Source: the human T2T-CHM13v2.0 reference genome, Homo sapiens. Taken from it: a stretch of DNA of 64,000 nt. The notes beneath the pieces were generated by a model, which searched no databases, was not told the DNA's origin, and was given only the letters and a program-made list of their open reading frames with translations. The stretch covers positions 29,856,001 to 29,920,000 of the forward strand of contig CP086569.2 in NCBI GenBank assembly GCA_009914755.4. The letters run 5' to 3'. The translations under genes and the position numbers were made by a program. Position 1 is the stretch's first letter. Each line of letters starts with the position of its first letter. Shown here one piece after another: positions 1 through 21,336 of the stretch.

Positions 1-633
1 ACGGTCTCGAATGGAATAAAAATGTATGGAATGGAATGCAATGAAACGGAATCGAATGTCATAGAATGTAATGGAATGCAAAAAAATGGAATCCAAAATC
101 ATTGACTGGAAAGGCTGGGTGTCGAAAGGAATTGACTGCAATGGAATGGAATCGAATGGAATGGAAATGAATAGAATCGAACTAAATCGAATGGAATGGA
201 ATTGATAGGAACGGAATGGAAAGGAATGCAATGATTTGGCATGGAATGGAATCGAATGGCATCGAATGGAATGGAATGGAATGCAATGGAATGGAATGTA
301 TTAGAATGTAATGAACATTAGTGGAATGTACTCGAATGGATTCGACTGGAATGGAATGTTCTGGAAGTCAATGGACTCCAATGGAATGGATTCAAAAGGA
401 ATGGAATCGAACGGAATGGAATCTAATGGAATGGAATTAAATGGAAATGAATCAAATTGAATAGCACGGAATTGAATTGAATGGAATCGAATGCAATGGA
501 ATCTAATGAAACGGAAAGGAAAGAATGGAATGGAATAGAATGGGCTGGAATGGAAAGGAATCGAAACGAATGGAATGGAATCGAACTGAGGAGACTGGAA
601 TGGAATGCACTGGAATGGAAGGGAGTGTAATGG

Positions 634-646
634 AAGGTTCTCGAAA
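634..646 (+). promoter_or_regulatory. Canonical trimeric heat-shock-element motif GAAggTTCtcGAA (nGAAnnTTCnnGAAn), site HSE-A; recurs once in every HOR copy
   Basis: Exact match to the HSF consensus. The same 13-mer is seen at 4161-4173, 7720-7732 and at the equivalent offset in all other copies. Confidence 0.35.
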
Positions 647-3504
647 AAAATGGAATCGAATGGAATGGAATTGAATGGAACGGAATAGAGTCGAATGGAA
701 TTGAATGGAATGGAATGGACTAGAGTGAAATGGAATCGAACCACAAGGAATGGACAGGAATAGAATGGTCTCGAATTGAATGGAATCGTATGGAATGGCA
801 TCAAACGGAATGGAATGGACAGCCACGGAGTGGAATGCACTCGAATGCAATGGAGTCGAAACTAATGGACTGGAATAGAATGGACTCGACTGGTACGGAC
901 TCCAATGGAATGGAATCGAAAGGAAGGGAATCGAACGGAATGGACTCGAAGGGAAAAGACTGCAATGGAAAGGTCTCGAATGGAATGGAAATTAATGGAA
1001 TGGAATGGAATCGAATGAAATGGAGTCAAAAGGAATGGAATCGAATGGCAAGAAATCGAATGTAATGGAATCGCAAGGAATTGATGTGAACGGAACGGAA
1101 TGGAATGGTATCCAAAGGAATGGAATAGAATGGAATGGAATCGAATGGAAAGGACTCGAATGGAAATCACTCGAATAGAATGCAATTTAATAAAATAGGA
1201 TCAAATGTAATAGAATGGAATGGAAAGGAATCGAATCGGAAGGAATGGAGACAGATGGAATGGAATGGAACAGAGAGCAATGGTATAGAATGGAATGGAA
1301 TCATCTGTAATGGAATTGAATGGAATGGAATAATATGAAATGGAATGGAATGGAATGGAATGGAATGCCCTTGAATTAAATGGACTGGACTCGAAGAGAG
1401 TGGAATGGAAAGTGTTGAGATAGAATGGAATGGACTCCTTTGGAATGGTGTAGTATGCAATGCAATCGACTGGCAGGGAATCAAAAGGAATGTAATCGAA
1501 TGGATTGGACTGGAATGCAATGGACTCGAATAGATTGGAAACGGAATGCAAAGGAATGGAATGGAATAGTATGGAATGCAATGGAAGGGAATGGAGTGGA
1601 ATAGACTAGAGTGGAATGGAATGGACTGGAAAGCAATGGACTGGAATGGAACTTTCTTGGATGGATTGGAATCACACGGAATGGAATGCAATGCAATCAA
1701 ATGGCATGGAATAAAATAGAATGAAAGAGAATCAAATGGAATTGAATCGAATGGAATCGAATGGATTGGAAAGGAATAGAATCGAATGGAATGGAATTGA
1801 CTCAAATGGAATGGACTAGAATGGAATGGATTCGAATGGAAGGCAAAGGAATGGAATCTATTGGAATGGACTGTAATGGAATGGAATGGAAGGGATTGGA
1901 ATGGACTCGAATGGAATGGACTGCAATAGAAAGGATTGGAATGGAATGAAAAAGAATTGAATGGAATAGAACAGAATGGAATCAAATCGAATGAAATGGA
2001 ATGGAATAGAAAGGAATGGAATGAAATGGAATGGAAAGGATTCGAATGGAATGCAATCGAATGGAATGGAATCGAACGGAATGGAATAAAATGGAAGAAA
2101 ACTGGCAAGAAATGGAATCGAAATGAATGGAGTGTTATGGAACGGACTCAAAAGGAATTGAATGTAATAGAATGGAGTGGAGTGGACTCGAATATAATGG
2201 ACTGGAATGGAATGAAATCACATGGAATGGGAACGAATGGAATGGAATGGAAAGGAATGGAATCGAATGGAAAGGAATCGAATGGAAGGGAATGAAATTG
2301 AATCAACAGGAATGGAAGGGAATAGAATAGACGGTAATGGAATGGACTCGAATAGAATGGACACGAATGCTCAAATTGAATGGACTCGAATGGAATGGAA
2401 ACGAAAGGAATGTCATCGAATGGAATTGAATCGATTGGAATGAAATCGCATAGAATGGAGTGGAATCAAATGGAATTGAATCGAAAGGAAAGGAAGCGAA
2501 TGGACTGAAATGAAATGGAATGGAATTGAATGGAAAGTAATGCAATGGAATAGAATGGAACGAAATTTCACGGAATGGAATCAAACTGAATGGAATCAAA
2601 TCAATGGAATCAAATCAAATGGAATGGAAAGGAATTGAATGGAGTAGATTGGATTGGATGGGATTGGAATGAAATGTACTGGAAAGGACTCGAATTTCAT
2701 GAAACGGAATGGAATGAATTGGAACGGAATGGACTCGAATGGAATGGAATGTCATGGAATGGCATCAAATGGAATGGAATCGAATGCAATGGAATGCTAT
2801 GGAATGGAATGGAATGCATTGGAATGGAATGTCCTCTAATGGAATGGATTCGAGTGGAATGGAATCGAATATAATGGAGTCGAATGAAATGGAATTGAAA
2901 GGAATGGGATCGAATACAATGGAATATACTGGAATGTAACGTAATGTACTCGAATGTAATTGACTGGAATGGAATGTACATGAATGGAATGTAATCGAAT
3001 GGAAAGTAATCCAATGGAATAGAATCTAATGCAATAAAATCGACTCAGATAGAGTAGAATGTAATGGAATGGAGTGCAGTGCAATGGAATGGAATGGAAT
3101 GGAATGCAATGGAATGGAATGGAATGGAATGGAATGGAATGGAATGGAATGGTATGGAATGGATAGTAACGGACTGGAGTGAAATGGACTGGAAAGGAAT
3201 GGACTCAAATTGAAAGGTCTCGAAAGGAATGGAGTCAAATGGAATGGTCTGGAATGGAATGAACACGAATGTAATGCAACCCAATAGAATGGAATCGAAT
3301 GGCATGGAATATAAAGAAATGGAATCGAAGAGAATGGAAACAAATGGAATGGAATTGAATGGAATGGAAATGAATGGAATGGGAACGAATGGAGTGAAAT
3401 TGTATGCAGTAGAATAGAATAGAATGGAATTCAAGCGAAAGGAAAGGAATGGATTGGAATGGAATGGAATTCATTGGAATGTAAGGGAATGTAGTGTAAT
3501 GGAC

Positions 3505-3510
3505 AGGCCT
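3505..3510. other. AGGCCT (StuI; contains HaeIII GGCC), the single GGCC per HOR, recurring at ~3.55 kb spacing
   Basis: ggacaggcctggaataaag recurs about 20 bp upstream of every anchor. No other GGCC occurs in a unit except the copy-16 variant at 53718-53721. Confidence 0.85.
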
Positions 3511-4449
3511 GGAATAAAGTGGAATGCTACGGTCTCGAATGGAATAAAAATGTATGGAATGGAATGCAATGAAACGGAATCGAATGTCATAGAATGTAAT
3601 GGAATGCAAAAAAATGGAATCCAAAATCATTGACTGGAAAGGCTGGGTGTCGAAAGGAATTGACTCCAATGGAATGGAATCGAATGGAATGGAAGTGAAT
3701 ATAATCGAACTAAATCGAATGGAATGGAATTGATAGGAACGGAATGGAAAGGAATGCAATGATTTGGCATGGAATGGAATCGAATGGCATCGAATGGAAT
3801 GGAATGGAATGCAATGGAATGGAATGTATTAGAATGTAATGAACTTTAATGGAATGTACTCGAATGGATTCGACTGGAATGGAATGTTCTGGAAGTGAAT
3901 GGACTCCAATGGAATGGATTCCAAAGGAATGGAATCGTACGGAATGGAATCTAATGGATGGAATTAAATGGAAATGAATCAAATTGAATAGCACGGAATT
4001 GAATTGAATGGAATGGAATGCAATGGAATCTAATGAAACGGAAAGGAAAGGAATGGAATGGAATGGAATGGGCTGGAATGGAAAGGAATCGAAACGAATG
4101 GAATGGAATCGAACTGAAGAGACTGGAATGGAATGCACTGGAATGGAAGGGAGTGTAATGGAAGGTTCTCGAAAAAAATGGAATCGAATGGAATGGAATT
4201 GAATGGAACGGAATAGAGTCGAATGGAATTGAATGGAATGGAATGGACTAGAGTGAAATGGAATCGAACCACAAGGAATGGACAGGAATAGAATGGTCTC
4301 GAATTGAATGGAATCGTATGGAATGGCATCAAACGGAATGGAATGGACAGCCACGGAATGGAATCCACTCGAATGCAATGGAGTCGAAACTAATGGACTG
4401 GAATAGAATGGACTCGACTGGTACGGACTCCAATGGAATGGAATCGAAT

Positions 4450-4479
4450 GGAAGGGAATCGAACGGAAGGGAATCGAAC
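4450..4479 (+). repeat. 15-bp tandem duplication (ggaagggaatcgaac x2) that is an indel polymorphism between HOR copies
   Basis: Two copies are present in HOR copies 2, 3, 4, 5 and 17. All other copies have one (for example 18719-18733). Confidence 0.85.
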
Positions 4480-5201
4480 GGAATGGACTCGAAGGGAAAA
4501 GACTGCAATGGAAATGTCTCGAATGGAATGGAAATTAATGGAATGGAATGGAATCGAATGAAATGGAGTCAAAAGGAATGGAATCGAATGGCAAGAAATC
4601 GAATGTAATGGAATCGCCAGGAATTGATGTGAACGGAACGGAATGGAATGGAATCCAAAGGAATGGAATAGAATGGAATGGAATCGAATGGAAAGGACTC
4701 GAATGGAAATCACTCGAATAGAATGCAATTTAATAAAATAGGATCAAATGTAATGGAATGGAATGGAAAGGAATCGAAACGAAAGGAATGGAGACAGATG
4801 GAATGGAATGGAACAGAGAGCAATGGTATAGAATGGAATGGAATCATCTGGAATGGAATTGAATGGAATGGAATAATATGAAATGGAATGGAATGGAATG
4901 GAATGGAATGCCCTTGAATTAAATGGACTGGAATGGAATGGACTCAAACAGAGTGGAATGGAAAGTGTGGAGATAGAATGGAATGAACTCCTTTGGAATG
5001 GTGTAGTATGCAATGCAATCGACTGGCAGGGAATCAAAAGGAATGTAATCGAATGGATTGGACTGCAATGCAATGGACTCGAATAGATTGGAAACGGAAT
5101 GCAAAGGAATGGAATGGAATAGTACGGAATGCAATGGAAGGGAATGGAGTGGAATAGACTAGAGTGGAATGGAATGGACTGGAAAGCAATGGACTGGAAT
5201 G

Positions 5202-5214
5202 GAACTTTCTTGAA
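5202..5214 (+). promoter_or_regulatory. Second canonical heat-shock-element motif GAActTTCttGAA, site HSE-B; present in most HOR copies with spacer variants
   Basis: Perfect nGAAnnTTCnnGAAn match. Variants GAAcaTTCttGAA (19447-19459) and GAAcaTTCtaGAA (26525-26537) keep all three triplets. Copies 1, 5, 9 and 17 have the third triplet decayed to GGA (for example 1649-1661). Confidence 0.3.
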
Positions 5215-7086
5215 TGGACTGGAATCAAACGGAATGGAATGCAATGCAATCAAATGGCATGGAATAAAATAGAATGAAAGAGAATCAAATGGAATTGAAT
5301 CGAATGGAATCGAATGGATTGGAAAGGAATAGAATGGAATGGAATGGAATGGACTAGAATGGAATGGATTCGAATGGAAGGCAAAGGAATGGAATCTATT
5401 GGAATGGACTGTAATGGAATGGAATGGAAGGGATTGGAATGGACTCGAATGGAATGGACTGCAATAGAAAGGATTCGAATGGAATGAAAAAGAATTGAAT
5501 GGAATAGAACAGAATGGAATCAAATCGAATGAAATGGAATGGAATAGAAAGGAATGGAATGAAATGGAATGGAAAGGATTCGAATGGAATGCAATCGAAT
5601 GGAATGGAATCGAACGGAATGGAATAAAATGGAAGAAAACTGGCAAGAAATGGAATCGAAATGAATGGAGTGTTATGGAACGGACTCAAAAGGAATTGAA
5701 TGTAATAGAATGGAGTGGAGTGGACTCGAATATAATGGACTGGAATGGAATGAAATCACATGGAATGGGAACGAATGGAATGGAATGGAAAGGAATGGAA
5801 TCGAATGGAAAGGAATCGAATGGAAGGGAATGAAATTGAATCAACACGAATGGAAGGGAATAGAATAGACTGTAATGGAATGGACTCGAATAGAATGGAC
5901 ACGAATGCTCAAATTAAATGGACTCGAATGGAATGGAAACGAAAGGAATGTCATCGAATGGAATTGAATCGATTGGAATGAAATCGCATAGAATGGAGTG
6001 GAATCAAAAGGAATTGAATCGAAAGGAAAGGAAGCGAATGGACTGAAATGAAATGGAATGGAATTGAATGGAAAGTAATGCAATGGAATAGAATGGAACG
6101 AAATTTCACGGAATGGAATCAAACTGAATGGAATCAAATCAATGGAATCAAATCAAATGGAATGGAAAGGAATTGAATGGAGTAGATGGGATTGGATGGG
6201 ATTGGAATGAAATGTACTGGAAAGGACTCGAATTTCATGAAACGGAATGGAATGAATTGGAACGGAATGGACTCGAATGGAATGGAATGTCATGGGATGG
6301 CATCAAATGGAATGGCATCAAATGGAATGGAATCGAATGCAATGGAATGCTATGGAATGGAATGGAATGCATTGGAATGGAATGTCCTCTAATGGAATGG
6401 ATTCGAGTGGAATGGAATTGAATATAATGGAGTCGAATGAAATGGAATTGAAATGAATGGGATCGAATACAATGGAACATACTGGAATGTAATGTAATGA
6501 ACTCGAATGTAATTGACTGGAATGGAATGTACATGAATGGAATGTAATCGAATGGAAAGTAATCCAATGGAATAGAATCTAATGCAATAAAATCGACTCA
6601 GATAGAGTAGAATGTAATGGAATGGAGTGCAGTGCAATGGAATGGAATGGAATGGAATGCAATGGAATGGAATGGAATGGAATGGAATGGAATGGAATGG
6701 GATGGAATGGTATGGAATGGATAGTAATGGACTGGAGTGAAATGGACTGGAAAGGAATGGACTCAAATTGAAAGGGCTCGAAAGGAATGGAGTCAAATGG
6801 AATGGTCTGGAATGGAATGAACACGAATGTAATGCAACCCAATAGAATGGAATCGAATGGCATGGAATATAAAGAAATGGAATCGAAGAGAATGGAAACA
6901 AATGGAATGGAATTGAATGGAATGGAATTGAATGGAATGGGAACGAATGGAGTGAAATTGTATGCAGTAGAAGGGAATAGAATGGAATGCAAGCGAAAGG
7001 AAAGGAATGGATTGGAATGGAATGGAATTCATTGGAATGGAAGGGAATGTAGTGTAATGGACAGGCCTGGAATAAAGTGGAATGCT

Positions 7087-10000
7087 ACGGTCTCGAATGG
7101 AATAAAAATGTATGGAATGGAATGCAATGAAACGGAATCGAATGTCATAGAATGTAATGGAATGCAAAAAAATGGAATCCAAAATCATTGACTGGAAAGG
7201 CTGGGTGTCGAAAGGAATTGACTCCAATGGAATGGAATCGAATGGAATGGAAGTGAATAGAATCGAACTAAATCGAATGGAATGGAATTGATAGGAACGG
7301 AATGGAAAGGAATGCAATGATTTGGCATGGAATGGAATCGAATGGCATCGAATGGAATGGAATGGAATGCAATGGAATGGAATGTATTAGAATGTAATGA
7401 ACTTTAATGGAATGTACTCGAATGGATTCGACTGGAATGGAATGTTCTGGAAGTGAATGGACTCCAATGGAATGGATTCAAAAGGAATGGAATCGTACGG
7501 AATGGAATCTAATGGAATGGAATTAAATGGAAATGAATCAAATTGAATAGCACGGAATTGAATTGAATGGAATGGAATGCAATGGAATCTAATGAAACGG
7601 AAAGGAAAGGAATGGAATGGAATGGAATGGGCTGGAATGGAAAGGAATCGAAACGAATGGAATGGAATCGAACTGAAGAGACTGGAATGGAATGCACTGG
7701 AATGGAAGGGAGTGTAATGGAAGGTTCTCGAAAAAAATGGAATCGAATGGAATGGAATTGAATGGAACGGAATAGAGTCGAATGGAATTGAATGGAATGG
7801 AATGGACTAGAGTGAAATGGAATCGAACCACAAGGAATGGACAGGAATAGAATGGTCTCGAATTGAATGGAATCGTATGGAATGGCATCAAACGGAATGG
7901 AATGGACAGCCACGGAATGGAATGCACTCGAATGCAATGGAGTGGAAACTAATGGACTGGAATAGAATGGACTCGACTGGTACGGACTCCAATGGAATGG
8001 AATCGAATGGAAGGGAATCGAACGGAAGGGAATCGAACGGAATGGACTCGAAGGGAAAAGACTGCAATGGAAAGGTCTCGAATGGAATGGAAATTAATGG
8101 AATGGAATGGAATCGAATGAAATGGAGTCAAAAGGAATGGAATCGAATGGCAAGAAATCGAATGTAATGGAATCGCCAGGAATTGATGTGAACGGAACGG
8201 AATGGAATGGAATCCAAAGGAATGGAATAGAATGGAATGGAATCGAATGGAAAGGACTCGAATGGAAATCACTCGAATAGAATGCAATTTAATAAAATAG
8301 GATCAAATGTAATGGAATGGAATGGAAAGGAATCGAAACGAAAGGAATGGAGACAGATGGAATGGAATGGAACAGAGAGCAATGGTATAGAATGGAATGG
8401 AATCATCTGGAATGGAATTGAATGGAATGGAATAATATGAAATGGAATGGAATGGAATGGAATGGAATGCCCTTGAATTAAATGGACTGGACTCGAACAG
8501 AGTGGAATGGAAAGTGTTGAGATAGAATGGAATGGACTCCTTTGGAATGGTCTAGTATGCAATGCAATCGACTGGCAGGGAATCAAAAGGAATGTAATCG
8601 AATGGATTGGACTGGAATGCAATGGACTCGAATAGATTGGAAACGGAATGCAAAGGAATGGAATGGAATAGTATGGAATGCAATGGAAGGGAATGGAGTG
8701 GAATAGACTAGAGTGGAATGGAATGGACTGGAAAGCAATGGACTGGAATGGAACTTTCTTGAATGGACTGGAATCAAACGGAATGGAATGCAATGCAATC
8801 AAATGGCATGGAATAAAATAGAATGAAAGAGAATCAAATGGAATTGAATCGAATGGAATCGAATGGATTGGAAAGGAATAGAATGGAATGGAATGGAATT
8901 GACTCAAATGGAATGGACTAGAATGGAATGGATTCGAATGGAAGGCAAAGGAATGGAATCTATTGGAATGGACTGTAATGGAATGGAATGGAAGGGATTG
9001 GAATGGACTCGAATGGAATGGACTGCAATAGAAAGGATTCGAATGGAATGAAAAAGAATTGAATGGAATAGAACAGAATGGAATCAAATCGAATGAAATG
9101 GAATGGAATAGAAAGGAATGGAATGAAATGGAATGGAAAGGATTCGAATGGAATGCAATCGAATGGAATGGAATCGAACGGAATGGAATAAAATGGAAGA
9201 AAACTGGCAAGAAATGGAATCGAAATGAATGGAGTGTTATGGAACGGACTCAAAAGGAATTGAATGTAATAGAATGGAGTGGAGTGGACTCGAATATAAT
9301 GGACTGGAATGGAATGAAATCACATGGAATGGGAACGAATGGAATGGAATGGAAAGGAATGGAATCGAATGGAAAGGAATCGAATGGAAGGGAATGAAAT
9401 TGAATCAACAGGAATGGGAGGGAATAGAATAGACTGTAATGGAATGGACTCGAATAGAATGTACACGAATCCTCAAATTAAATGGACTCGAATGGAATGG
9501 AAACGAAAGGAATGTCATCGAATGGAATTGAATCGATTGGAATGAAATCGCATAGAATGGAGTGGAATCAAATGGAATTGAATCGAAAGGAAAGGAAGCG
9601 AATGGACTGAAATGAAATGGAATGGAATTGAATGGAAAGTAATGCAATGGAATAGAATGGAACGAAATTTCACGGAACGGAATCAAACTGAATTAAATCA
9701 AATCAATGGAATCAAATCAAATGGAATGGAAAGGAATTGAATGGAGTAGATGGGATTGGATGGGATTGGAATGAAATGTACTGGAAAGGACTCGAATTTC
9801 ATGAAACGGAATGGAATGAATTGGAACGGAATGGACTCGAATGGAATGGAATGTCATGGAATGGCATCAAATGGAATGGCATCAAATGGAATGGAATCGA
9901 ATGCAATGGAATGCTATGGAATGGAATGGAATGCATTGGAATGGAATGTCCTCTAATGGAATGGATTCGAGTGGAATGGAATTGAATATAATGGAGTCGA

Positions 10001-10660
10001 AAGAAATGGAATTGAAAGGAATGGGATCGAATACAATGGAATATATTGGAATGTAACGTAATGAACTCGAATGTAATTGACTGGAATGGAATGTACATGA
10101 ATGGAATGTGATCGAATGGAAAGTAGTCCAATGGAATAGAATCTAATGCAATAAAATCGACTCAGATAGAGTAGAATGTAATGGAATGGAGTGCAGTGCA
10201 ATGGAATGGAATGGAATGGAATGCAATGGAATGGAATGGAATGGAATGGAATGGAATGGAATGGAATGGAATGGGATGGAATGGTATGGAATGGATAGTA
10301 ATGGACTGGAGTGAAATGGACTGGAAAGGAATGGACTCAAATTGAAAGGGCTCGAAAGGAATGGAGTCAAATGGAATGGTCTGGAATGGAATGAACACGA
10401 ATGTAATGCAACCCAATAGAATGGAATCGAATGGCATGGAATATAAAGAAATGGAATCGAAGAGAATGGAAACAAATGGAATGGAATTGAATGGAATGGA
10501 ATTGAATGGAATGGGAACGAATGGAGTGAAATTGTATGCAGTAGAAGGGAATAGAATGGAATGCAAGCGAAAGGAAAGGAATGGATTGGAATGGAATGGA
10601 ATTCATTGGAATGGAAGGGAATGTAGTGTAATGGACAGGCCTGGAATAAAGTGGAATGCT
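7087..10660 (+). repeat. HOR copy 3 (3574 bp); carries the 15-bp duplication but not the 10-bp insertion
   Basis: Anchor spacing. Duplicated ggaagggaatcgaac at ~8009-8038. Confidence 0.9.
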
Positions 10661-13600
10661 ACGGTCTCGAATGGAATAAAAATGTATGGAATGGAATGCA
10701 ATGAAACGGAATCGAATGTCATAGAATGTAATGGAATGCAAAAAAATGGAATCCAAAATCATTGACTGGAAAGGCTGGGTGTCGAAAGGAATTGACTCCA
10801 ATGGAATGGAATCGAATGGAATGGAAGTGAATAGAATCGAACTAAATCGAATGGAATGGAATTGATAGGAACGGAATGGAAAGGAATGCAATGATTTGGC
10901 ATGGAATGGAATCGAATGGCATCGAATGGAATGGAATGGAATGCAATGGAATGGAATGTATTAGAATGTAATGAACTTTAATGGAATGTACTCGAATGGA
11001 TTCGACTGGAATGGAATGTTCTGGAAGTGAATGGACTCCAATGGAATGGATTCAAAAGGAATGGAATCGTACGGAATGGAATCTAATGGAATGCAATTAA
11101 ATGGAAATGAATCAAATTGAATAGCACGGAATTGAATTGAATGGAATGGAATGCAATGGAATCTAATGAAACGGAAAGGAAAGGAATGGAATGGAATGGA
11201 ATGGGCTGGAATGGAAAGGAATCGAAACGAATGGAATGGAATCGAACTGAAGAGACTGGAATGGAATGCACTGGAATGGAAGGGAGTGTAATGGAAGGTT
11301 CTCGAAAAAAAAGGAATCGAATGGAATGGAATTGAATGGAACGGAATAGAGTCGAATGGAATTGAATGGAATGGAATGGACTAGAGTGAAATGGAATCGA
11401 ACCACAAGGAATGGACAGGAATAGAATGGTCTCGAATTGAATGGAATCGTATGGAATGGCATCAAACGGAATGGAATGGACAGCCACGGAATGGAATGCA
11501 CTCGAATGCAATGGAGTGGAAACTAATGGACTGGAATAGAATGGACTCGACTGGTACGGACTCCAATGGAATGGAATCGAATGGAAGGGAATCGAACGGA
11601 AGGGAATCGAACGGAATGGACTCGAAGGGAAAAGACTGCAATGGAAAGGTCTCGAATGGAATGGAAATTAATGGAATGGAATGGAATCGAATGAAATGGA
11701 GTCAAAAGGAATGGAATCGAATGGCAAGAAATCGAATGTAATGGAATCGCCAGGAATTGATGTGAACGGAACGGAATGGAATGGAATCCAAAGGAATGGA
11801 ATAGAATGGAATGGAATCGAATGGAAAGGACTCGAATGGAAATCACTCGAATAGAATGCAATTTAATAAAATAGGATCAAATGTAATGGAATGGAATGGA
11901 AAGGAATCGAAACGAAAGGAATGGAGACAGATGGAATGGAATGGAACAGAGAGCAATGGTATAGAATGGAATGGAATCATCTGGAATGGAATTGAATGGA
12001 ATGGAATAATATGAAATGGAATGGAATGGAATGGAATGGAATGCCCTTGAATTAAATGGACTGGAATGGAATGGACTCAAACAGAGTGGAATGGAAAGTG
12101 TGGAGATAGAATGGAATGAACTCCTTTGGAATGGTCTAGTAGGCAATGCAATCGACTGGCAGGGAATCAAAAGGAATGTAATCGAATGGATTGGACTGGA
12201 ATGCAATGGACTCGAATAGATTGGAAACGGAATGCAAAGAATGGAATGGAATAGTATGGAATGGAATGGAAAGGAATGGAGTGGAACAGACTAGAGTGGA
12301 ATGGAATGGACTGGAAAGCAATGGACTGGAATGGAACTTTCTTGAATGGACTGGAATCAAACGGAATGGAATGCAATGCAATCAAATGGCATGGAATAAA
12401 ATAGAATGAAAGAGAATCAAATGGAATTGAATCGAATGGAATCGAATGGATTGGAAAGGAATAGAATGGAATGGAATGGAATTGACTCAAATGTAATGGA
12501 CTAGAATGGAATGGATTCGAATGGAAGGCAAAGAAATGGAATCTATTGGAATGGACTGTAATGGAATGGAATGGAAGGGATTGGAATGGACTCGAATGGA
12601 ATGGACTGCAATAGAAAGGATTCGAATGGAATGAAAAAGAATTGAATGGAATAGAACAGAATGGAATCAAATCGAATGAAATGGAATGGAATAGAAAGGA
12701 ATGGAATGAAATGGAATGGAAAGGATTCGAATGGAATGCAATCGAATGGAATGGAATCGAACGGAATGGAATAAAATGGAAGAAAACTGGCAAGAAATGG
12801 AATCGAAATGAATGGAGTGTTATGGAACGGACTCAAAAGGAATTGAATGTAATAGAATGGAGTGGAGTGGACTCGAATATAATGGACTGGAATGGAATGA
12901 AATCACATGGAATGGGAACGAATGGAATGGAATGGAAAGGAATGGAATCGAATGGAAAGGAATCGAATGGAAGGGAATGAAATTGAATCAACAGGAATGG
13001 AAGGGAATAGAATAGACGGTAATGGAATGGACTCGAATAGAATGGACACGAATGCTCAAATTAAATGGACTCGAATGGAATGGAAACGAAAGGAATGTCA
13101 TCGAATGGAATTGAATCGATTGGAATGAAATCGCATAGAATGGAGTGGAATCAAATGGAATTGAATCGAAAGGAAAGGAAGCGAATGGACTGAAATGAAA
13201 TGGAATGGAATTGAATGGAAAGTAATGCAATGGAATAGAATGGAACGAAATTTCACGGAATGGAATCAAACTGAATGGAATCAAATCAATGGAATCAAAT
13301 CAAATGGAATGGAAAGGAATTGAATGGAGTAGATGGGATTGGATGGGATTGGAATGAAATGTACTGGAAAGGACTCGAATTTCATGAAACGGAATGGAAT
13401 GAATTGGAACGGAATGGACTCGAATGGAATGGAATGTCATGGGATGGCATCAAATGGAATGGCATCAAATGGAATGGAATCGAATGCAATGGAATGCTAT
13501 GGAATGGAATGGAATGCATTGGAATGGAATGTCCTCTAATGGAATGGATTCGAGTGGAATGGAATTGAATATAATGGAGTCGAATGAAATGGAATTGAAA

Positions 13601-14243
13601 GGAATGGGATCGAATACAATGGAATATACTGGAATGTAACGTAATGAACTCGAATGTAATTGACTGGAATGGAATGTACATGAATGGAATGTAATCGAAT
13701 GGAAAGTAATCCAATGGAATAGAATCTAATGCAATAAAATCGACTCAGATAGAGTAGAATGTAATGGAATGGAGTGCAGTGCAATGGAATGGAATGGAAT
13801 GGAATGCAATGGAATGGAATGGAATGGAATGGAATGGAATGGAATGGAATGGAATGGGATGGAATGGTATGGAATGGATAGTAATGGACTGGAGTGAAAT
13901 GGACTGGAAAGGAATGGACTCAAATTGAAAGGGCTCGAAAGGAATGGAGTCAAATGGAATGGTCTGGAATGGAATGAACACGAATGTAATGCAACCCAAT
14001 AGAATGGAATCGAATGGCATGGAATATAAAGAAATGGAATCGAAGAGAATGGAAACAAATGGAATGGAATTGAATGGAATGGAATTGAATGGAATGGGAA
14101 CGAATGGAGTGAAATTGTATGCAGTAGAAGGGAATAGAATGGAATGCAAGCGAAAGGAAAGGAATGGATTGGAATGGAATGGAATTCATTGGAATGGAAG
14201 GGAATGTAGTGTAATGGACAGGCCTGGAATAAAGTGGAATGCT
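10661..14243 (+). repeat. HOR copy 4 (3583 bp, the longest); has the 15-bp duplication, the 10-bp insertion, and the longest pure (GGAAT)n tract
   Basis: Anchor spacing. A (ggaat)x9 run lies at ~13811-13855. Confidence 0.9.
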
Positions 14244-17200
14244 ACGGTCTCGAATGGAATAAAAATGTATGGAATGGAATGCAATGAAACGGAATCGAAT
14301 GTCATAGAATGTAATGGAATGCAAAAAAATGGAATCCAAAATCATTGACTGGAAAGGCTGGGTGTCGAAAGGAATTGACTCCAATGGAATGGAATCGAAT
14401 GGAATGGAAGTGAATAGAATCGAACTAAATCGAATGGAATGGAATTGATAGGAACGGAATGGAAAGGAATGCAATGATTTGGCATGGAATGGAATCGAAT
14501 GGCATCGAATGGAATGGAATGGAATGCAATGGAATGGAATGTATTAGAATGTAATGAACTTTAATGGAATGTACTCGAATGGATTCGACTGGAATGGAAT
14601 GTTCTGGAAGTGAATGGACTCCAATGGAATGGATTCAAAAGGAATGGAATCGTACGGAATGGAATCTAATGGAATGGAATTAAATGGAAATGAATCAAAT
14701 TGAATAGCACGGAATTGAATTGAATGGAATGGAATGCAATGGAATCTAATGAAACGGAAAGGAAAGGAATGGAATGGAATGGAATGGGCTGGAATGGAAA
14801 GGAATCGAAACGAATGGAATGGAATCGAACTGAAGAGACTGGAATGGAATGCACTGGAATGGAAGGGAGTGTAATGGAAGGTTCTCGAAAAAAATGGAAT
14901 CGAATGGAATGGAATTGAATGGAACGGAATAGAGTCGAATGGAATTGAATGGAATGGAATGGACTAGAGTGAAATGGAATCGAACCACAAGGAATGGACA
15001 GGAATAGAATGGTCTCGAATTGAATGGAATCGTATGGAATGGCATCAAACGGAATGGAATGGACAGCCACGGAATGGAATGCACTCGAATGCAATGGAGT
15101 GGAAACTAATGGACTGGAATAGAATGGACTCGACTGGTACGGACTCCAATGGAATGGAATCGAATGGAAGGGAATCGAACGGAAGGGAATCGAACGGAAT
15201 GGACTCGAAGGGAAAAGACTGCAATGGAAAGGTCTCGAATGGAATGGAAATTAATGGAATGGAATGGAATCGAATGAAATGGAGTCAAAAGGAATGGAAT
15301 CGAATGGCAAGAAATCGAATGTAATGGAATCGCCAGGAATTGATGTGAACGGAACGGAATGGAATGGAATCCAAAGGAATGGAATAGAATGGAATGGAAT
15401 CGAATGGAAAGGACTCGAATGGAAATCACTCGAATAGAATGCAATTTAATAAAATAGGATCAAATGTAATGGAATGGAATGGAAAGGAATCGAAACGAAA
15501 GGAATGGAGACAGATGGAATGGAATGGAACAGAGAGCAATGGTATAGAATGGAATGGAATCATCTGGAATGGAATTGAATGGAATGGAATAATATGAAAT
15601 GGAATGGAATGGAATGGAATGGAATGCCCTTGAATTAAATGGACTGGACTCGAACAGAGTGGAATGGAAAGTGTTGAGATAGAATGGAATGGACTCCTTT
15701 GGAATGGTCTAGTATGCAATGCAATCGACTGGCAGGGAATCAAAAGGAATGTAATCGAATGGATTGGACTGGAATGCAATGGACTCGAATAGATTGGAAA
15801 CGGAATGCAAAGGAATGGAATGGAATAGTATGGAATGCAATGGAAGGGAATGGAGTGGAATAGACTAGAGTGGAATGGAATGGACTGGAAAGCAATGGAC
15901 TGGAATGGAACTTTCTTGGATGGACTGGAATCAAACGGAATGGAATGCAATGCAATCAAATGGCATGGAATAAAATAGAATGAAAGAGAATCAAATGGAA
16001 TTGAATCGAATGGAATCGAATGGATTGGAAAGGAATAGAATGGAATGGAATGGAATTGACTCAAATGGAATGGACTAGAATGGAATGGATTCGAATGGAA
16101 GGCAAAGGAATGGAATCTATTGGAATGGACTGTAATGGAATGGAATGGAAGGGATTGGAATGGACTCGAATGGAATGGACTGCAATAGAAAGGATTCGAA
16201 TGGAATGAAAAAGAATTGAATGGAATAGAACAGAATGGAATCAAATCGAATGAAATGGAATGGAATAGAAAGGAATGGAATGAAATGGAATGGAAAGGAT
16301 TCGAATGGAATGCAATCGAATGGAATGGAATCGAACGGAATGGAATAAAATGGAAGAAAACTGGCAAGAAATGGAATCGAAATGAATGGAGTGTTATGGA
16401 ACGGACTCAAAAGGAATTGAATGTAATAGAATGGAGTGGAGTGGACTCGAATATAATGGACTGGAATGGAATGAAATCACATGGAATGGGAACGAATGGA
16501 ATGGAATGGAAAGGAATGGAATCGAATGGAAAGGAATCGAATGGAAGGGAATGAAATTGAATCAACAGGAATGGGAGGGAATAGAATAGACTGTAATGGA
16601 ATGGACTCGAATAGAATGTACACGAATCCTCAAATTAAATGGACTCGAATGGAATGGAAACGAAAGGAATGTCATCGAATGGAATTGAATCGATTGGAAT
16701 GAAATCGCATAGAATGGAGTGGAATCAAATGGAATTGAATCGAAAGGAAAGGAAGCGAATGGACTGAAATGAAATGGAATGGAATTGAATGGAAAGTAAT
16801 GCAATGGAATAGAATGGAACGAAATTTCACGGAACGGAATCAAACTGAATTAAATCAAATCAATGGAATCAAATCAAATGGAATGGAAAGGAATTGAATG
16901 GAGTAGATGGGATTGGATGGGATTGGAATGAAATGTACTGGAAAGGACTCGAATTTCATGAAACGGAATGGAATGAATTGGAACGGAATGGACTCGAATG
17001 GAATGGAATGTCATGGAATGGCATCAAATGGAATGGCATCAAATGGAATGGAATCGAATGCAATGGAATGCTATGGAATGGAATGGAATGCATTGGAATG
17101 GAATGTCCTCTAATGGAATGGATTCGAGTGGAATGGAATTGAATATAATGGAGTCGAATGAAATGGAATTGAAAGGAATGGGATCGAATACAATGGAATA

Positions 17201-17797
17201 TATTGGAATGTAACGTAATGAACTCGAATGTAATTGACTGGAATGGAATGTACATGAATGGAATGTGATCGAATGGAAAGTAGTCCAATGGAATAGAATC
17301 TAATGCAATAAAATCGACTCAGATAGAGTAGAATGTAATGGAATGGAGTGCAGTGCAATGGAATGGAATGGAATGGAATGCAATGGAATGGAATGGAATG
17401 GAATGGAATGGGATGGAATGGTATGGAATGGATAGTAATGGACTGGAGTGAAATGGACTGGAAAGGAATGGACTCAAATTGAAAGGGCTCGAAAGGAATG
17501 GAGACAAATGGAATGGTCTGGAATGGAATGAACACGAATGTAATGCAATCCAATAGAATGGAGTCGAATGGCATGGAATATAAAGAAATGGAATCGAAGA
17601 GAATGGAAACAAATGGAATGGAATTGAATGGAATGGAATTGAATGGAATGGGAACGAATGGAGTGAAATTGTATGCAGTAGAAGAGAATAGAATGGAATG
17701 CAAGCGAAAGGAAAGGAATGGATTGGAATGGAATGGAATTCATTGGAATGGAAGGGAATGTAGTGTAATGGACAGGCCTGGAATAAAGTGGAATGCT
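14244..17797 (+). repeat. HOR copy 5 (3554 bp); a recombinant copy whose 5' part matches the 15-bp-duplication haplotype and whose 3' part matches the copies 6-8 haplotype
   Basis: Duplication at ~15166-15195. The 3' end carries the gagacaaatgg and gcaatccaatag variants at ~17498-17550, which are shared with copies 6-9. Confidence 0.85.
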
Positions 17798-20700
17798 ACG
17801 GTCTCGAATGGAATAAAAATGTATGGAATGGAATGCAATGAAACGGAATCGAATGTCATAGAATGTAATGGAATGCAAAAAAATGGAATCCAAAATCATT
17901 GACTGGAAAGGCTGGGTGTCGAAAGGAATTGACTCCAATGGAATGGAATCGAATGGAATGGAAGTGAATAGAATCGAACTAAATCGAATGGAATGGAATT
18001 GATAGGAACGGAATGGAAAGGAATGCAATGATTTGTCATGGAATGGAATCGAATGGCATCGAATGGAATGGAATGGAATGCAATGGAATGGAATGTATTA
18101 GAATGTAATGAACTTTAATGGAATGTACTCGAATGGATTCGACTGGAATGGAATGTTCTGGAAGTGAATGGACTCCAATGGAATGGATTCAAAAGGAATG
18201 GAATCGTACGGAATGGAATCTAATGGAATGGAATTAAATGGAAATGAATCAAATTGAATAGCACGGAATTGAATTGAATGGAATGGAATGCAATGGAATC
18301 TAATGAAACGGAAAGGAAAGGAATGGAATGGAATGGAATGGGCTGGAATGGAAAGGAATCGAAACGAATGGAATGGAATCGAACTGAAGAGACTGGAATG
18401 GAATGCACTGGAATGGAAGGGAGTGTAATGGAAGGTTCTCGAAAAAAATGGAATCGAATGGAATGGAATTGAATGGAACGGAATAGAGTCGAATGGAATT
18501 GAATGGAATGGAATGGACTAGAGTGAAATGGAATCGAACCACAAGGAATGGACAGGAATAGAATGGTCTCGAATTGAATGGAATCGTATGGAATGGCATC
18601 AAACGGAATGGAATGGACAGCCACGGAATGGAATGCACTCGAATGCAATGGAGTCGAAACTAATGGACTGGAATAGAATGGACTCGACTGGTACGGACTC
18701 CAATGGAATGGAATCGAATGGAAGGGAATCGAACGGAATGGACTCGAAGGGAAAAGACTGCAATGGAAAGGTCTCGAATGGAATGGAAATTAATGGAATG
18801 GAATGGAATCGAATGAAATGGAGTCAAAAGGAATGGAATCGATTGGCAAGAAATCGAATGTAATGGAATCGCAAGGAATTGATGTGAACGGAACGGAATG
18901 GAATGGAATCCAAAGGAATGGAATAGAATGGAATGGAATCGAATGGAAAGGACTCGAATGGAAATCACTCGAATAGAATGCAATTTAATAAAATAGGATC
19001 AAATGTAATGGAATGGAATGGAAAGGAATCGAAACGAAAGGAATGGAGACAGATGGAATGGAATGGAACAGAGAGCAATGGTATAGAATGGAATGGAATC
19101 ATCTGGAATGGAATTGAATGGAATGGAATAATATGAAATGGAATGGAATGGAATGGAATGGAATGCCCTTGAATTAAATGGACTGGACTCGAACAGAGTG
19201 GAATGGAAAGTGTTGAGATAGAATGGAATGGACTCCTTTGGAATGGTCTAGTATGCAATGCAATCGACTGGCAGGGAATCAAAAGGAATGTAATGGAATG
19301 GATTGGACTGGAATGCAATGGACTCGAATAGATTGGAAACGGAATGCAAAGGAATGGAATGGAATAGTATGGAATGGAATGGAAAGGAATGGAGTGGAAT
19401 AGACTAGAGTGGAATGGAATGGACTGGAAAGCAATGGACTGGAATGGAACATTCTTGAATGGACTGGAATCAAACGGAATGGAATGCAATGCAATCAAAT
19501 GTCATGGAATAAAATAGAATGAAAGAGAATCAAATGGAATTGAATCGAATGGAATCGAATGGATTGGAAAGGAATAGAATGGAATGGAATGGAATTGACT
19601 CAAATGGAATGGACTAGAATGGAATGGATTCGAATGGAAGGCAAAGGAATGGAATCTATTGGAATGGACTGTAATGGAATGGAATGGAAAGGATTGGAAT
19701 GGACTCGAATGGAATGGACTGCAATAGAAAGGATTCGAATGGAATGAAAAAGAATTGAATGGAATAGAACAGAATGGAATCAAATCGAATGAAATGGAAT
19801 GGAATAGAAAGGAATGGAATGAAATGGAATGGAAAGGATTCGAATGGAATGTAATCGAATGGAATGGAATCGAACGGAATGGAATAAAATGGAAGAAAAC
19901 TGGCAAGAAATGGAATCGAAATGAATGGAGTGTTATGGAACGGACTCAAAAGGAATTGAATGTAATAGAATGGAGTGGAGTGGACTCGAATATAATGGAC
20001 TGGAATGGAATGAAATCACATGGAATGGGAACGAATGGAATGGAATGGAAAGGAATGGAATCGAATGGAAAGGAATCGAATGGAAGGGAATGAAATTGAA
20101 TCAACAGGAATGGGAGGGAATAGAATAGACTGTAATGGAATGGACTCGAATAGAATGTACACGAATGCTCAAATTAAATGGACTCGAATGGAATGGAAAC
20201 GAAAGGAATGTCATCGAATGGAATTGAATCGATTGGAATGAAATCGCATAGAATGGAGTGGAATCAAATGGAATTGAATCGAAAGGAAAGGAAGCGAATG
20301 GACTGAAATGAAATGGAATGGAATTGAATGGAAAGTAATGCAATGGAATAGAATGGAACGAAATTTCACGGAATGGAATCAAACTGAATGGAATCAAATC
20401 AATGGAATCAAATCAAATGGAATGGAAAGGAATTGAATGGAGTAGATGGGATTGGATGGGATTGGAATGAAATGTACTGGAAAGGACTCGAATTTCATGA
20501 AACGGAATGGAATGAATTGGAACGGAATGGACTCGAATGGAATGGAATGTCATGGAATGGCATCAAATGGAATGGCATCAAATGGAATGGAATCGAATGC
20601 AATGGAATGCTATGGAATGGAATGGAATGCATTGGAATGGAATGTCCTCTAATGGAATGGATTCGAGTGGAATGGAATTGAATATAATGGAGTCGAATGA

Positions 20701-21336
20701 AATGGAATTGAAAGGAATGGGATCGAATACAATGGAATATATTGGAATGTAACGTAATGAACTCGAATGTAATTGACTGGAATGGAATGTACATGAATGG
20801 AATGTGATCAAATGGAAAGTAGTCCAATGGAATAGAATCTAATGCAATAAAATCGACTCAGATAGAGTAGAATGTAATGGAATGGAGTGCAGTGCAATGG
20901 AATGGAATGGAATGGAATGCAATGGAATGGAATGGAATGGAATGGAATGGGATAGAATGGTATGGAATGGATAGTAATGGACTGGAGTGAAATGGACTGG
21001 AAAGGAATGGACTCAAATTGAAAGGGCTCGAAAGGAATGGAGACAAATGGAATGGTCTGGAATGGAATGAACACGAATGTAATGCAATCCAATAGAATGG
21101 AGTCGAATGGCATGGAATATAAAGAAATGGAATCGAAGAGAATGGAAACAAATGGAATGGAATTGAATGGAATGGAATTGAATGGAATGGGAACGAATGG
21201 AGTGAAATTGTATGCAGTAGAAGAGAATAGAATGGAATGCAAGCGAAAGGAAAGGAATGGATTGGAATGGAATGGAATTCATTGGAATGGAAGGGAATGT
21301 AGTGTAATGGACAGGCCTGGAATAAAGTGGAATGCT
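17798..21336 (+). repeat. HOR copy 6 (3539 bp); first copy of the near-identical block 6-8
   Basis: No 15-bp duplication. HSE-B variant gaacattcttgaa at 19447-19459. gagacaaatgg variant present. Confidence 0.9.

What the first reader, a model, noticed from the sequence alone, without database searches (positions are those of the whole stretch)
634..646. Perfect heat-shock elements embedded once (HSE-A) and usually twice (HSE-B) per HOR copy
GAAggTTCtcGAA at offset ~634 of every copy matches the canonical trimeric HSE (nGAAnnTTCnnGAAn) exactly. A second site at offset ~1650 (GAActTTCttGAA, GAAcaTTCttGAA or GAAcaTTCtaGAA) matches perfectly in most copies, with spacer bases varying while the triplets are kept. 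The TTC triplet is notable on a strand that is otherwise almost pure GGAAT. HSat3 at 9q12 is a known HSF1 target that makes SATIII lncRNA and nuclear stress bodies under heat shock. About 36 perfect HSEs in 64 kb would make this array a dense potential HSF1 sink or secondary stress-body site. The site is not universally conserved: HSE-B is degraded to ...ttGGA in copies 1, 5, 9 and 17.
Basis: partly seen in the sequence, partly recalled or inferred. Interest (0 to 1): 0.55.

Follow-up and report, generated by a model that had tools for sequence, protein, structure and literature searches.

The report
Known heat-shock elements in Y-chromosome DYZ1 satellite

Summary
The window holds 18 full copies and one partial copy of a ~3.56 kb GGAAT-derived higher-order repeat. 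The copies are 99.0-99.6% identical to their consensus. A published 400-nt stretch of the DYZ1 clone X06228.1 aligns without gaps at 97.8-99.0%, so this is DYZ1 (Y-specific HSat3, Yq12).

GAAnnTTCnnGAA occurs 47 times, at three fixed offsets per unit:
- Site C, offset 354: 17 of 19 copies.
- Site A, offset 633: 17 of 18 copies, not "every copy".
- Site B, offset ~1650: 13 of 18 copies. It is broken in copies 1, 5, 9 and 17 and deleted in copy 10.

These are three founding events amplified with the repeat, not 47 independent ones. Composition shuffles predict 0.03-0.12 sites per unit. A shuffle that keeps the pentamer lattice predicts 1.06 (P(≥3)=0.049).

The triplets are no better conserved than other positions, either in the window (4 of 27 columns variable, against 6.2% overall) or in 30 independent DYZ1 contigs (0.926 intact, against 0.918).

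Penin et al. 2021 (PMC7889540) already reported perfect HSEs in DYZ1, HSF1 ChIP enrichment next to site C, and Yq12-dependent primary nuclear stress bodies in male cells.

The parts
1..64000 (+). DYZ1 (Y-specific HSat3) tandem array: 18 full copies and 1 partial copy of a ~3.56 kb higher-order repeat. The + strand is the G-rich GGAAT strand.
   Evidence: Copy starts at 1, 3529, 7087, 10661, 14244, 17798, 21337, 24876, 28400, 31933, 35041, 38594, 42154, 45718, 49272, 52821, 56385, 59954 and 63523. Copies are 99.0-99.6% identical to the 3559-bp consensus. GC skew is +0.54 to +0.60 throughout. A 400-nt stretch of X06228.1 aligns at 97.8-99.0%.
354..366 (+). Site C, copy 1, perfect HSE GAATGTTCTGGAA.
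633..645 (+).
1649..1661 (+). Site B, copy 1, broken: GAACTTTCTTGGA (third unit GAA>GGA)
3500..3666 (+). Published HSF1 ChIP-qPCR amplicon (Penin et al. Yq12 primers), example at the copy 1/2 junction. It recurs at every later unit junction: the reverse primer has 18 exact matches, the forward primer 17 with one edit (none found at the copy 10/11 junction).
   Evidence: Forward primer matches at 3500 with 1 edit; reverse primer matches exactly at 3645-3666. The amplicon lies 216 bp upstream of site C at 3882 and 495 bp upstream of site A at 4161.
3882..3894 (+). Site C, copy 2, perfect
4161..4173 (+). Site A, copy 2, perfect
5202..5214 (+). Site B, copy 2, perfect GAACTTTCTTGAA
7440..7452 (+). 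Site C, copy 3, perfect
7720..7732 (+). Site A, copy 3, perfect
8751..8763 (+). Site B, copy 3, perfect
11014..11026 (+). Site C, copy 4, perfect
11294..11306 (+). Site A, copy 4, perfect
12334..12346 (+). Site B, copy 4, perfect
14597..14609 (+). Site C, copy 5, perfect
14877..14889 (+). Site A, copy 5, perfect
15908..15920 (+). Site B, copy 5, broken (GAA>GGA)
18151..18163 (+). Site C, copy 6, perfect
18431..18443 (+). Site A, copy 6, perfect
19447..19459 (+). Site B, copy 6, perfect, spacer variant GAACATTCTTGAA
21690..21702 (+). Site C, copy 7, perfect
21970..21982 (+). Site A, copy 7, perfect
22986..22998 (+). Site B, copy 7, perfect, spacer variant GAACATTCTTGAA
25229..25241 (+). Site C, copy 8, perfect
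25509..25521 (+). Site A, copy 8, perfect
26525..26537 (+). Site B, copy 8, perfect, spacer variant GAACATTCTAGAA
28753..28765 (+). Site C, copy 9, broken: GAATGCTCTGGAA (TTC>CTC)
29033..29045 (+). Site A, copy 9, broken: AAAGGTTCTCGAA (GAA>AAA).
30059..30071 (+). Site B, copy 9, broken (GAA>GGA)
32286..32298 (+). Site C, copy 10, perfect
32566..32578 (+). Site A, copy 10, perfect
33505..33506 (.). Junction of a 440-bp deletion in copy 10 (consensus positions 1584-2023) that removes site B. The flanks share a GGAATGGAATG direct repeat.
35394..35406 (+). Site C, copy 11, perfect
35679..35691 (+). Site A, copy 11, perfect
36704..36716 (+). Site B, copy 11, perfect
38947..38959 (+). Site C, copy 12, perfect
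39228..39240 (+). Site A, copy 12, perfect
40254..40266 (+). Site B, copy 12, perfect
42507..42519 (+). Site C, copy 13, perfect
42787..42799 (+). Site A, copy 13, perfect
43813..43825 (+). Site B, copy 13, perfect
46071..46083 (+). Site C, copy 14, perfect
46351..46363 (+). Site A, copy 14, perfect
47377..47389 (+). Site B, copy 14, perfect
49625..49637 (+). Site C, copy 15, broken: AAATGTTCTGGAA (GAA>AAA)
49905..49917 (+). Site A, copy 15, perfect
50931..50943 (+). Site B, copy 15, perfect
53174..53186 (+). Site C, copy 16, perfect
53454..53466 (+). Site A, copy 16, perfect
54480..54492 (+). Site B, copy 16, perfect
56738..56750 (+). Site C, copy 17, perfect
57018..57030 (+). Site A, copy 17, perfect
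58059..58071 (+). Site B, copy 17, broken (GAA>GGA)
60307..60319 (+). Site C, copy 18, perfect
60587..60599 (+). Site A, copy 18, perfect
61613..61625 (+). Site B, copy 18, perfect
63876..63888 (+). Site C, partial copy 19, perfect, spacer variant GAATGTTCCGGAA

Best explanation
The window is a stretch of the human Y-chromosome long-arm heterochromatin satellite DYZ1 (Y-specific HSat3, a ~3.56 kb higher-order repeat built from diverged GGAAT pentamers). Each repeat unit carries three minimal heat-shock elements: site C at offset 354, site A at 633 and site B at ~1650. Each has exactly three inverted nGAAn units. They are spaced 280, ~1026 and ~2253 bp apart. Each arose where one pentamer word drifted to xTTCT (GTTCT twice, TTTCT once) inside a lattice that already places GAA every 5 bp. 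Such a word is one step from GGTCT or GTACT, which also occur in the unit before CGAA/TGAA words. The flanking half-sites therefore came almost for free. Unequal exchange then copied the three sites along with the whole unit, which is why 64 kb holds 47 of them. Mechanism, taken from published experiments rather than shown here: on heat shock, trimerised HSF1 binds these sites across the megabases of Yq12, recruits acetyltransferases and RNA polymerase II, and drives transcription of the G-rich strand (the window's + strand) into (GGAAU)n-rich SATIII lncRNA. That RNA stays in cis, nucleates a nuclear stress body and recruits SR splicing factors. Neither the array nor the other DYZ1 copies sampled here show any sign that the HSE triplets are maintained more carefully than the rest of the unit. 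They persist because the whole repeat is young and homogenised.
For: Identity: repeat periods are 3524-3583 bp and the consensus is 3559 bp. Of 713 pentamer words, 242 are GGAAT. The 400 nt of DYZ1 clone X06228.1 printed in Penin et al. Fig. S4 align without gaps at 97.8-99.0% to every unit junction. Their Yq12 ChIP primers and the classical DYZ1 sexing primers (the latter recalled from memory) map once per unit. T2T-Y describes DYZ1 as ~3.6 kb nested HSat3 repeats that are mostly >98% identical.

Sites: 47 perfect GAAnnTTCnnGAA at three offsets. None extends to a fourth unit.

Origin: in slots flanked by GAA at +/-5 the central triplets are GAA 138, GAC 14, GTC 3, TAC 3 and TTC 3. Words before xGAA include GGACT x18, GGTCT x4, GTACT x2, GTTCT x2 and TTTCT x1. 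The pentamer-word shuffle gives 1.06 sites per unit.

Generality: in 39 independent DYZ1-bearing contigs, fetched with an anchor outside the HSEs, the sites are perfect in 34/36 (C), 32/35 (A) and 21/23 (B). Perfect HSEs fall at the same three offsets.

No special constraint: 4/27 triplet columns are variable, against 6.2% array-wide and 12% in the +/-15 bp flanks. In external copies 0.926 of HSEs are intact, against 0.918 for all 9-position masks and 0.951 for GAAnnGAAnnGAA controls.

Function (literature): PMC7889540 reports HSEs in DYZ1, heat-shock-dependent HSF1 ChIP at Yq12, loss of foci when Yq12 is deleted, (GGAAU)n SATIII RNA foci in male cells and SRSF1 recruitment to the HSF1 focus. 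bioRxiv 10.1101/2024.10.22.616524 reports that HSF1 ChIP-seq signal in HSat3 follows HSF1-motif density rather than being uniform. PMC10505914 reports transcription from the G-rich strand.
Against: No experiment has mutated or footprinted these particular 13-mers. The published ChIP-qPCR amplicon lies ~216 bp from site C and ~495 bp from site A, so it cannot say which site is bound, or whether degenerate GGAAT-based HSE-like runs contribute. Penin et al. count four perfect HSEs in X06228.1. I find three per unit here and no recurrent fourth in other copies, and I could not read X06228.1 in full. The published HSF1 ChIP-seq mapped to T2T comes from a female line (MCF7), so there is no base-resolution Y data. 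The lattice-aware null is exceeded at P=0.049, which leaves a little room for selection. The conservation tests have little power at ~0.7% divergence.
Confidence: 0.8

Rival explanations
1. The perfect HSEs are incidental. HSF1 is recruited to Yq12 mainly by the bulk of degenerate, direct-repeat GGAAT 'HSE-like' sequence, by chromatin state or by a cofactor, and the three perfect sites per unit add little.
For: Each unit holds 450 GAA triplets and 138 GAAnnGAAnnGAA runs against only 3 perfect inverted sites. Reviews speak of 'HSE-like sequences scattered in HSat3' and list the SATIII HSEs as 'in silico' only. Penin et al. themselves raise a cofactor as an alternative explanation for the Y preference. 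The ChIP amplicon does not contain an HSE.
Against: Franklin et al. report that HSF1 motifs sit in sub-regions of HSat3 arrays and that HSF1 ChIP-seq tracks those sub-regions, whereas TEAD motifs and TEAD4 ChIP signal are spread evenly across the arrays. From general knowledge of HSF, not tested here: HSF trimers need inverted nGAAn units for high-affinity binding. Penin et al. infer a higher HSF1 affinity for Yq12 than for 9q12 and suggest that more HSEs at Yq12 could explain it.
Confidence: 0.13
2. The HSEs are kept by natural selection because HSF1 recruitment to Yq12 has a fitness role in males, for example as a stress-body platform or an HSF1 buffer.
For: All three in-phase xTTCT words of the unit are flanked on both sides by xGAAx words, and the word shuffle gives P(>=3)=0.049. 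TTC is the commonest of the triplets that differ from GAA at all three positions in GAA-flanked slots, at 3 of 5. The sites are the majority state in DYZ1 copies from many independent samples.
Against: Triplet columns are not less variable than other columns in the array: 4/27, with P(var>=obs)=0.089, which leans the wrong way. They are no more often intact than arbitrary masks in external copies, 0.926 against 0.918. Site B is lost in 5 of 18 copies and copy 9 has lost all three. T2T-Y describes Yq12 as highly variable in size and structure between individuals. High identity between copies is expected from homogenisation alone.
Confidence: 0.07

Closest known systems
Perfect HSEs of the DYZ1 / Yq12 SATIII repeat (Penin et al. 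2021, Chromosoma 130:53, PMC7889540)
   Same: It is the same satellite: their 400-nt DYZ1 sequence is 97.8-99.0% identical to the window. It is the same motif class, and the HSE they frame (GAATGTTCTGGAA) is site C here. The proposed role is also the same (HSF1 binding, SATIII RNA, nuclear stress body).
   Different: They report four perfect HSEs in one cloned unit (X06228.1). Here there are three per unit, with per-copy losses, and no recurrent fourth site in 39 other contigs. They give no per-copy census and no chance or conservation analysis.
9q12 HSat3 array, the classical primary nuclear-stress-body locus (Jolly et al. 2002, 2004; Rizzi et al. 2004, as cited)
   Same: It is also a GGAAT-derived satellite that HSF1 binds on heat shock, is transcribed from the G-rich strand, and nucleates nSBs.
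   Different: It belongs to a different HSat3 subfamily on another chromosome, not the DYZ1 3.56 kb unit. Its HSEs are described only as 'HSE-like' or 'putative, unpublished'. HSF1 appears to prefer Yq12 over 9q12 in HT1080 and H460 cells.
Promoter-proximal HSEs of HSP genes such as HSP70
   Same: The core is identical: nGAAnnTTCnnGAAn, contiguous inverted pentamers bound by one HSF1 trimer.
   Different: From general knowledge, HSP promoters usually carry longer arrays of 4-6 or more units next to a defined TSS in open chromatin. Here every site is the 3-unit minimum, there are thousands of copies, they lie in constitutive heterochromatin, and no start site has been defined.
HSEs inside other repeats (Alu subfamilies, subtelomeric TERRA promoters), reviewed in PMC9032817
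   Same: These are also transcription-factor sites carried and multiplied by repetitive DNA, giving HSF1-dependent non-coding transcription.
   Different: Those repeats are dispersed or subtelomeric, not megabase-scale tandem arrays, and they do not nucleate nSBs.

Membership tests
DYZ1 (Y-specific HSat3, Yq12) | Built from diverged GGAAT/CATTC pentamers | tested here: met
   242 of 713 phased pentamer words are GGAAT, and the next most common are one-step variants. The window contains 4247 GGAAT.
DYZ1 (Y-specific HSat3, Yq12) | ~3.56-3.6 kb higher-order tandem unit with copies mostly >98% identical | tested here: met
   Periods are 3524-3583 bp, apart from one 3108-bp unit that carries a deletion. 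The consensus is 3559 bp and copies are 99.0-99.6% identical to it. T2T-Y gives ~3.6 kb and >98%; Penin et al. give 3564 bp for X06228.1.
DYZ1 (Y-specific HSat3, Yq12) | Sequence identity to the reference DYZ1 clone X06228.1 | tested here: met
   The 400 nt printed in Penin et al. Fig. S4 align without gaps at 97.8-99.0% to all 18 unit junctions. Only 400 of the 3564 nt could be tested.
DYZ1 (Y-specific HSat3, Yq12) | Carries the male-specific PCR primer sites | tested here: met
   The Penin Yq12 reverse primer matches exactly 18 times and the forward primer 17 times with one edit. The classical DYZ1 sexing primers (recalled from memory) match exactly 17 and 15 times.
DYZ1 (Y-specific HSat3, Yq12) | Located on Yq12 | not testable with these tools
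   No human genome assembly is available here. The location is inferred from the sequence matches above.
Canonical trimeric heat-shock element | Three contiguous inverted nGAAn units (GAAnnTTCnnGAA or its complement) with no mismatch | tested here: met
   47 exact matches at three offsets. There are 0 matches to TTCnnGAAnnTTC on the + strand and none with 4 units.
Canonical trimeric heat-shock element | Occurs more often than the sequence background predicts | tested here: inconclusive
   3 per unit against 0.03-0.12 for composition nulls, but against 1.06 for a pentamer-word shuffle, P=0.049.
Canonical trimeric heat-shock element | Bound by HSF1 on heat shock | not testable with these tools
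   The literature has HSF1 ChIP-qPCR positive at an amplicon ~216 bp from site C in heat-shocked HT1080 cells, and HSF1 foci that need Yq12. No site-resolved data exist.
Canonical trimeric heat-shock element | Triplet positions under stronger constraint than spacers and flanks | tested here: not met
   4/27 triplet columns are variable, against 2/12 spacer columns, 11/90 flank columns and 6.2% array-wide. In external copies 0.926 are intact, against 0.918 for all masks. Power is low at ~0.7% divergence.
Nuclear-stress-body nucleating SATIII locus | Heat-induced G-rich SATIII transcription, HSF1 focus, and SR-protein recruitment in cis | not testable with these tools
   For heat-shocked male cells Penin et al. 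report an HSF1 focus at Yq12, (GGAAU)n SATIII RNA foci, and SRSF1 colocalising with the HSF1 focus.

The most novel reading that the evidence does not exclude
The three HSEs per DYZ1 unit are not neutral passengers. They are maintained (or were enriched during the birth of the repeat) because a Y-linked reservoir of roughly 15,000 HSF1 sites changes the heat-shock response of male cells. It could do this by titrating HSF1 away from 9q12 and HSP genes, or by providing the main stress-body platform. Variation in Yq12 length and in HSE-intact units between men would then modulate stress tolerance. The borderline excess over the lattice-aware null (P=0.049) and the Y-over-9 preference reported in HT1080 and H460 cells are compatible with this. 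The conservation tests argue against ongoing selection.
Probability: 0.08. Interest if true: 0.55.

Novelty: already known. Interest (0 to 1): 0.15.

Why it matters
The biology is interesting in itself. One satellite on the male-specific chromosome carries perfect HSF1 sites at about 0.73 per kb, roughly 96 times the uniform-sequence expectation. Extrapolated to the >20 Mb of DYZ1 in T2T-Y, that is on the order of 15,000 sites (this is an extrapolation). That may explain why Yq12 competes with, or beats, 9q12 as the primary stress-body locus in male cells. All of this was published in 2021.

This check adds three small things. Second, the demonstration that the sites follow from three xTTCT pentamer words in a GAA lattice, then amplified with the repeat. 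Third, a negative result for site-specific conservation. [quoted passage not shown]

Tried and rejected
1. A super-repeat of four units, suggested by site B being broken in copies 1, 5, 9 and 17. Rejected: mean pairwise differences rise smoothly with lag (31 at lag 1 to ~45 at lag 5 or more) with no dip at lag 4 or 8. Copy 5 is nearest to copy 3 (6 differences), and copy 3 has site B intact.

2. High-order Markov nulls (orders 5-6) gave 2.4-3.5 sites per unit. I discarded them as nulls because at that order the chain simply replays the unit's unique 6- and 7-mers. I used a pentamer-word shuffle instead.

3. A fourth perfect HSE, to match Penin et al.'s count of four. There is none in the consensus. 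Eight sites are one mismatch away, including GAAATTTCACGGA at 2573. No recurrent fourth position appears in 39 external contigs. X06228.1 itself could not be fetched.

4. More diverged DYZ1 relatives, to gain power for a conservation test. The low-identity contigs were either error-prone long-read assemblies (L033, with many 1-bp indels) or carried the same sites unchanged, so they gave no extra depth.

5. Rfam scan of two units: no family matched.

6. Protein, structure, phage, plasmid and E. coli tools were not used. The window is a non-coding human satellite and they cannot bear on it.

Full report
**What the window is.** The 64 kb window is uniform in composition: GC 0.38-0.40 and GC skew +0.54 to +0.60, so the + strand is G-rich. 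It reads as diverged GGAAT pentamers. An anchor taken from the first 30 bases recurs 19 times at spacings of 3524-3583 bp, with one exception of 3108 bp. Aligning the 18 full copies and one partial copy gives a 3559-bp consensus, to which each copy is 99.0-99.6% identical at aligned positions. A phase-tracking segmentation cuts the unit into 713 words, of which 707 are pentamers and 242 are GGAAT.

**Identity as DYZ1.** This is the architecture of DYZ1, the Y-specific HSat3 of Yq12. T2T-Y describes it as ~3.6 kb nested repeats derived from CATTC, mostly >98% identical, totalling >20 Mb. I confirmed the identity directly. The 400 nt of DYZ1 clone X06228.1 printed in Fig. S4 of Penin et al. 2021 align without gaps at 97.8-99.0% to every unit junction. 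Their Yq12 ChIP primers map once per unit, as do the classical DYZ1 sexing primers, which I recalled from memory. Rfam finds nothing in two units. Nothing interrupts the array; the only large structural change is a 440-bp deletion in copy 10.

**Checking the observation.** GAAnnTTCnnGAA occurs 47 times, all on the + strand in GAA-first orientation. The hits fall at three fixed offsets per unit, not two.
It is perfect in 17 of 18 copies. Copy 9 has AAAGGTTCTCGAA at 29033, so "every copy" is wrong.
It is broken to ...TTGGA in copies 1, 5, 9 and 17, as stated. It is also missing from copy 10, where the deletion removes it.
- Site C, GAATGTTCTGGAA at offset 354, is perfect in 17 of 19 copies and broken in copies 9 and 15.
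- The count of "about 36" should be 30 for A plus B, and 47 for all three sites.
- None of the sites extends to a fourth inverted unit.

**Is it more than chance?** The answer depends on the null model.
- Against dinucleotide shuffles of the window, the expectation is 1.12 sites and 47 are observed.
- The 47 are not independent, though. They are three founding events copied with the repeat.
- Per unit, composition and Markov nulls up to order 3 predict 0.03-0.12 sites, and order 4 predicts 0.5. Three are observed.
- Those nulls ignore the 5-bp lattice, in which GAA recurs in phase. The unit has 450 GAA triplets and 138 GAAnnGAAnnGAA runs.
- Of the 12 TTC triplets per unit, seven sit out of phase in GGATTC[GA]A. 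Five have GAA five bases away on at least one side, and three of those complete an HSE. The other two miss by one base in a flank.
- Shuffling the unit's own pentamer words gives 1.06 perfect HSEs per unit, with P(≥3)=0.049.

So the real rarity is the in-phase xTTCT word. Once one exists, the HSE is close to automatic.

**How the xTTCT words could arise.** They are reachable by single steps through words that also occur in the unit. In GAA-flanked slots the central triplets are GAA 138, GAC 14, GTC 3, TAC 3 and TTC 3. Before xGAA words the unit has GGACT ×18, GGTCT ×4, GTACT ×2, GTTCT ×2 and TTTCT ×1.

In the array, 221 of 3559 columns vary (6.2%). Among the HSE columns, 4 of 27 triplet columns vary, as do 2 of 12 spacer columns and 11 of 90 flanking columns. 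Random masks of the same shape have a mean of 1.68 variable columns, and only 8.9% of them reach the observed 4. If anything, the triplets vary more than average.

To add independent copies I searched public bacterial-genome and metagenome contigs, where human DYZ1 turns up as a contaminant (T2T-Y noted this). The 23-mer anchor lies between sites C and A, so the search did not select on the HSE itself. It returned 39 loci.
- The sites are perfect in 34/36 (C), 32/35 (A) and 21/23 (B) of the orthologous positions.
- Of 90 perfect HSEs in these loci, 89 map to the same three sites; the other is a one-off in a single contig.
- On the 30 loci that are ≥96% identical, the pooled intact fraction at HSEs is 0.926. 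All 9-position masks average 0.918, and GAAnnGAAnnGAA controls average 0.951.

The three sites are therefore a stable consensus feature of DYZ1 across samples, but they are no better preserved than anything else in the unit. Power is limited, because divergence is only ~0.7%.

**What is already known.**
- They searched X06228.1 for HSEs and report four perfect ones.
- They designed Yq12 primers next to one of them, which is site C here.
- They showed heat-shock-dependent HSF1 ChIP enrichment in male HT1080 cells.
- HSF1 foci formed in a hamster hybrid carrying a whole Y, but not in one lacking Yq12.
- They saw single (GGAAU)n RNA foci in heat-shocked male cell lines and found SRSF1 colocalising with the HSF1 focus, which maps to Yq12.
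- They concluded that Yq12 is a primary HSF1 target in male cells. In HT1080 and H460 cells it outcompetes 9q12.
- As they summarise it, Eymery et al. 2010 had already listed the Y among HSF1 targets.

Franklin et al. (bioRxiv 10.1101/2024.10.22.616524) report that HSF1 motifs occupy sub-regions of HSat3 arrays. HSF1 ChIP-seq from heat-shocked MCF7 cells follows that motif density, whereas TEAD4 signal is uniform. This favours genuine HSEs over bulk GGAAT as the recruiting sequence, although MCF7 is a female line. Reviews state that HSat3 is transcribed from the G-rich strand and that the total number of HSF1 sites at these loci is still unknown.

**Mechanism.**
- Shown here: three minimal trimeric HSEs per 3.56 kb unit, spaced 280, ~1026 and ~2253 bp apart, on a G-rich + strand, fixed in the repeat consensus.
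- Shown in the literature: HSF1 occupies Yq12 after heat shock, and RNA and SR proteins accumulate there.
- Inferred: one HSF1 trimer binds each site, and transcription runs left to right on the window's + strand. At 0.73 sites per kb, about 96 times the uniform expectation, the >20 Mb of DYZ1 would carry on the order of 15,000 sites. That would be enough to act as a major HSF1 platform.
- Not shown anywhere: which of the three sites is used, and whether degenerate runs also contribute.

**Verdict.** The idea that selection holds the triplets in place finds no support. Novelty: already known. Interest: low.

Noticed in passing
window 28400-31932 (copy 9): 28753, 29033, 30059: Copy 9 is the only unit with all three HSEs broken, each by a different transition inside a triplet (TTC>CTC, GAA>AAA, GAA>GGA). 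With 29 substitutions in the copy, P(>=3 fall in the 27 triplet positions) is 0.0014, or about 0.025 after allowing for 18 copies. The C and A variants are private to this copy and were not seen in the external DYZ1 copies examined. It may be coincidence; I have no explanation.
   Followed up: partly
window 33505/33506 (copy 10, 31933-35040): Copy 10 is 3108 bp long because of a 440-bp deletion of consensus positions 1584-2023. The breakpoints lie in near-identical GGAATGGAATG... runs, which suggests slippage or unequal exchange within a unit. The deletion removes site B.
   Followed up: yes
whole window, copy-by-copy: Neighbouring units are more alike than distant ones: mean differences are 31 at lag 1 and ~45 at lag 5 or more. 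There are tight pairs and blocks (copies 3 and 5 differ at 6 positions, 6 and 7 at 9, and copies 12-15 at 17-28), and copy 17 is close to copies 2 and 4. There is no regular super-repeat. This fits local duplication or conversion within the array.
   Followed up: partly
window 1649, 15908, 30059, 58059 (site B in copies 1, 5, 9, 17): The same GAA>GGA change at site B occurs in four copies that are not each other's nearest relatives. Copy 5 differs from copy 3 at only 6 positions, yet copy 3 has site B intact. The change is therefore either recurrent or spread by short-tract conversion.
   Followed up: partly
L001-L007 (genome contigs), e.g. L001 = BMRF01000076.1 'Actinomadura cremea JCM 3308': Contigs deposited as bacterial genome sequence (Actinomadura, Streptomyces, Streptosporangium, Nocardia, Motilimonas and a Polyangiaceae MAG) are human DYZ1. 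L001 is 100% identical to the window consensus over 2622 bp. This is the human-Y contamination of microbial databases that the T2T-Y paper described.
   Followed up: partly
consensus offsets 324, 764, 969, 1299, 2573, 2948, 2998, 3273 (add a copy start for window coordinates): Eight further sites per unit are one mismatch from a perfect HSE, for example GAATGGTCTCGAA and GAAATTTCACGGA. One of these, if perfect in clone X06228.1, could account for the 'four perfect HSEs' counted by Penin et al.
   Followed up: no
window-wide: The complementary pentamer ATTCC occurs only twice on the + strand in 64 kb, against 4247 GGAAT. The array is strictly unidirectional, with no inverted segments.
   Followed up: no
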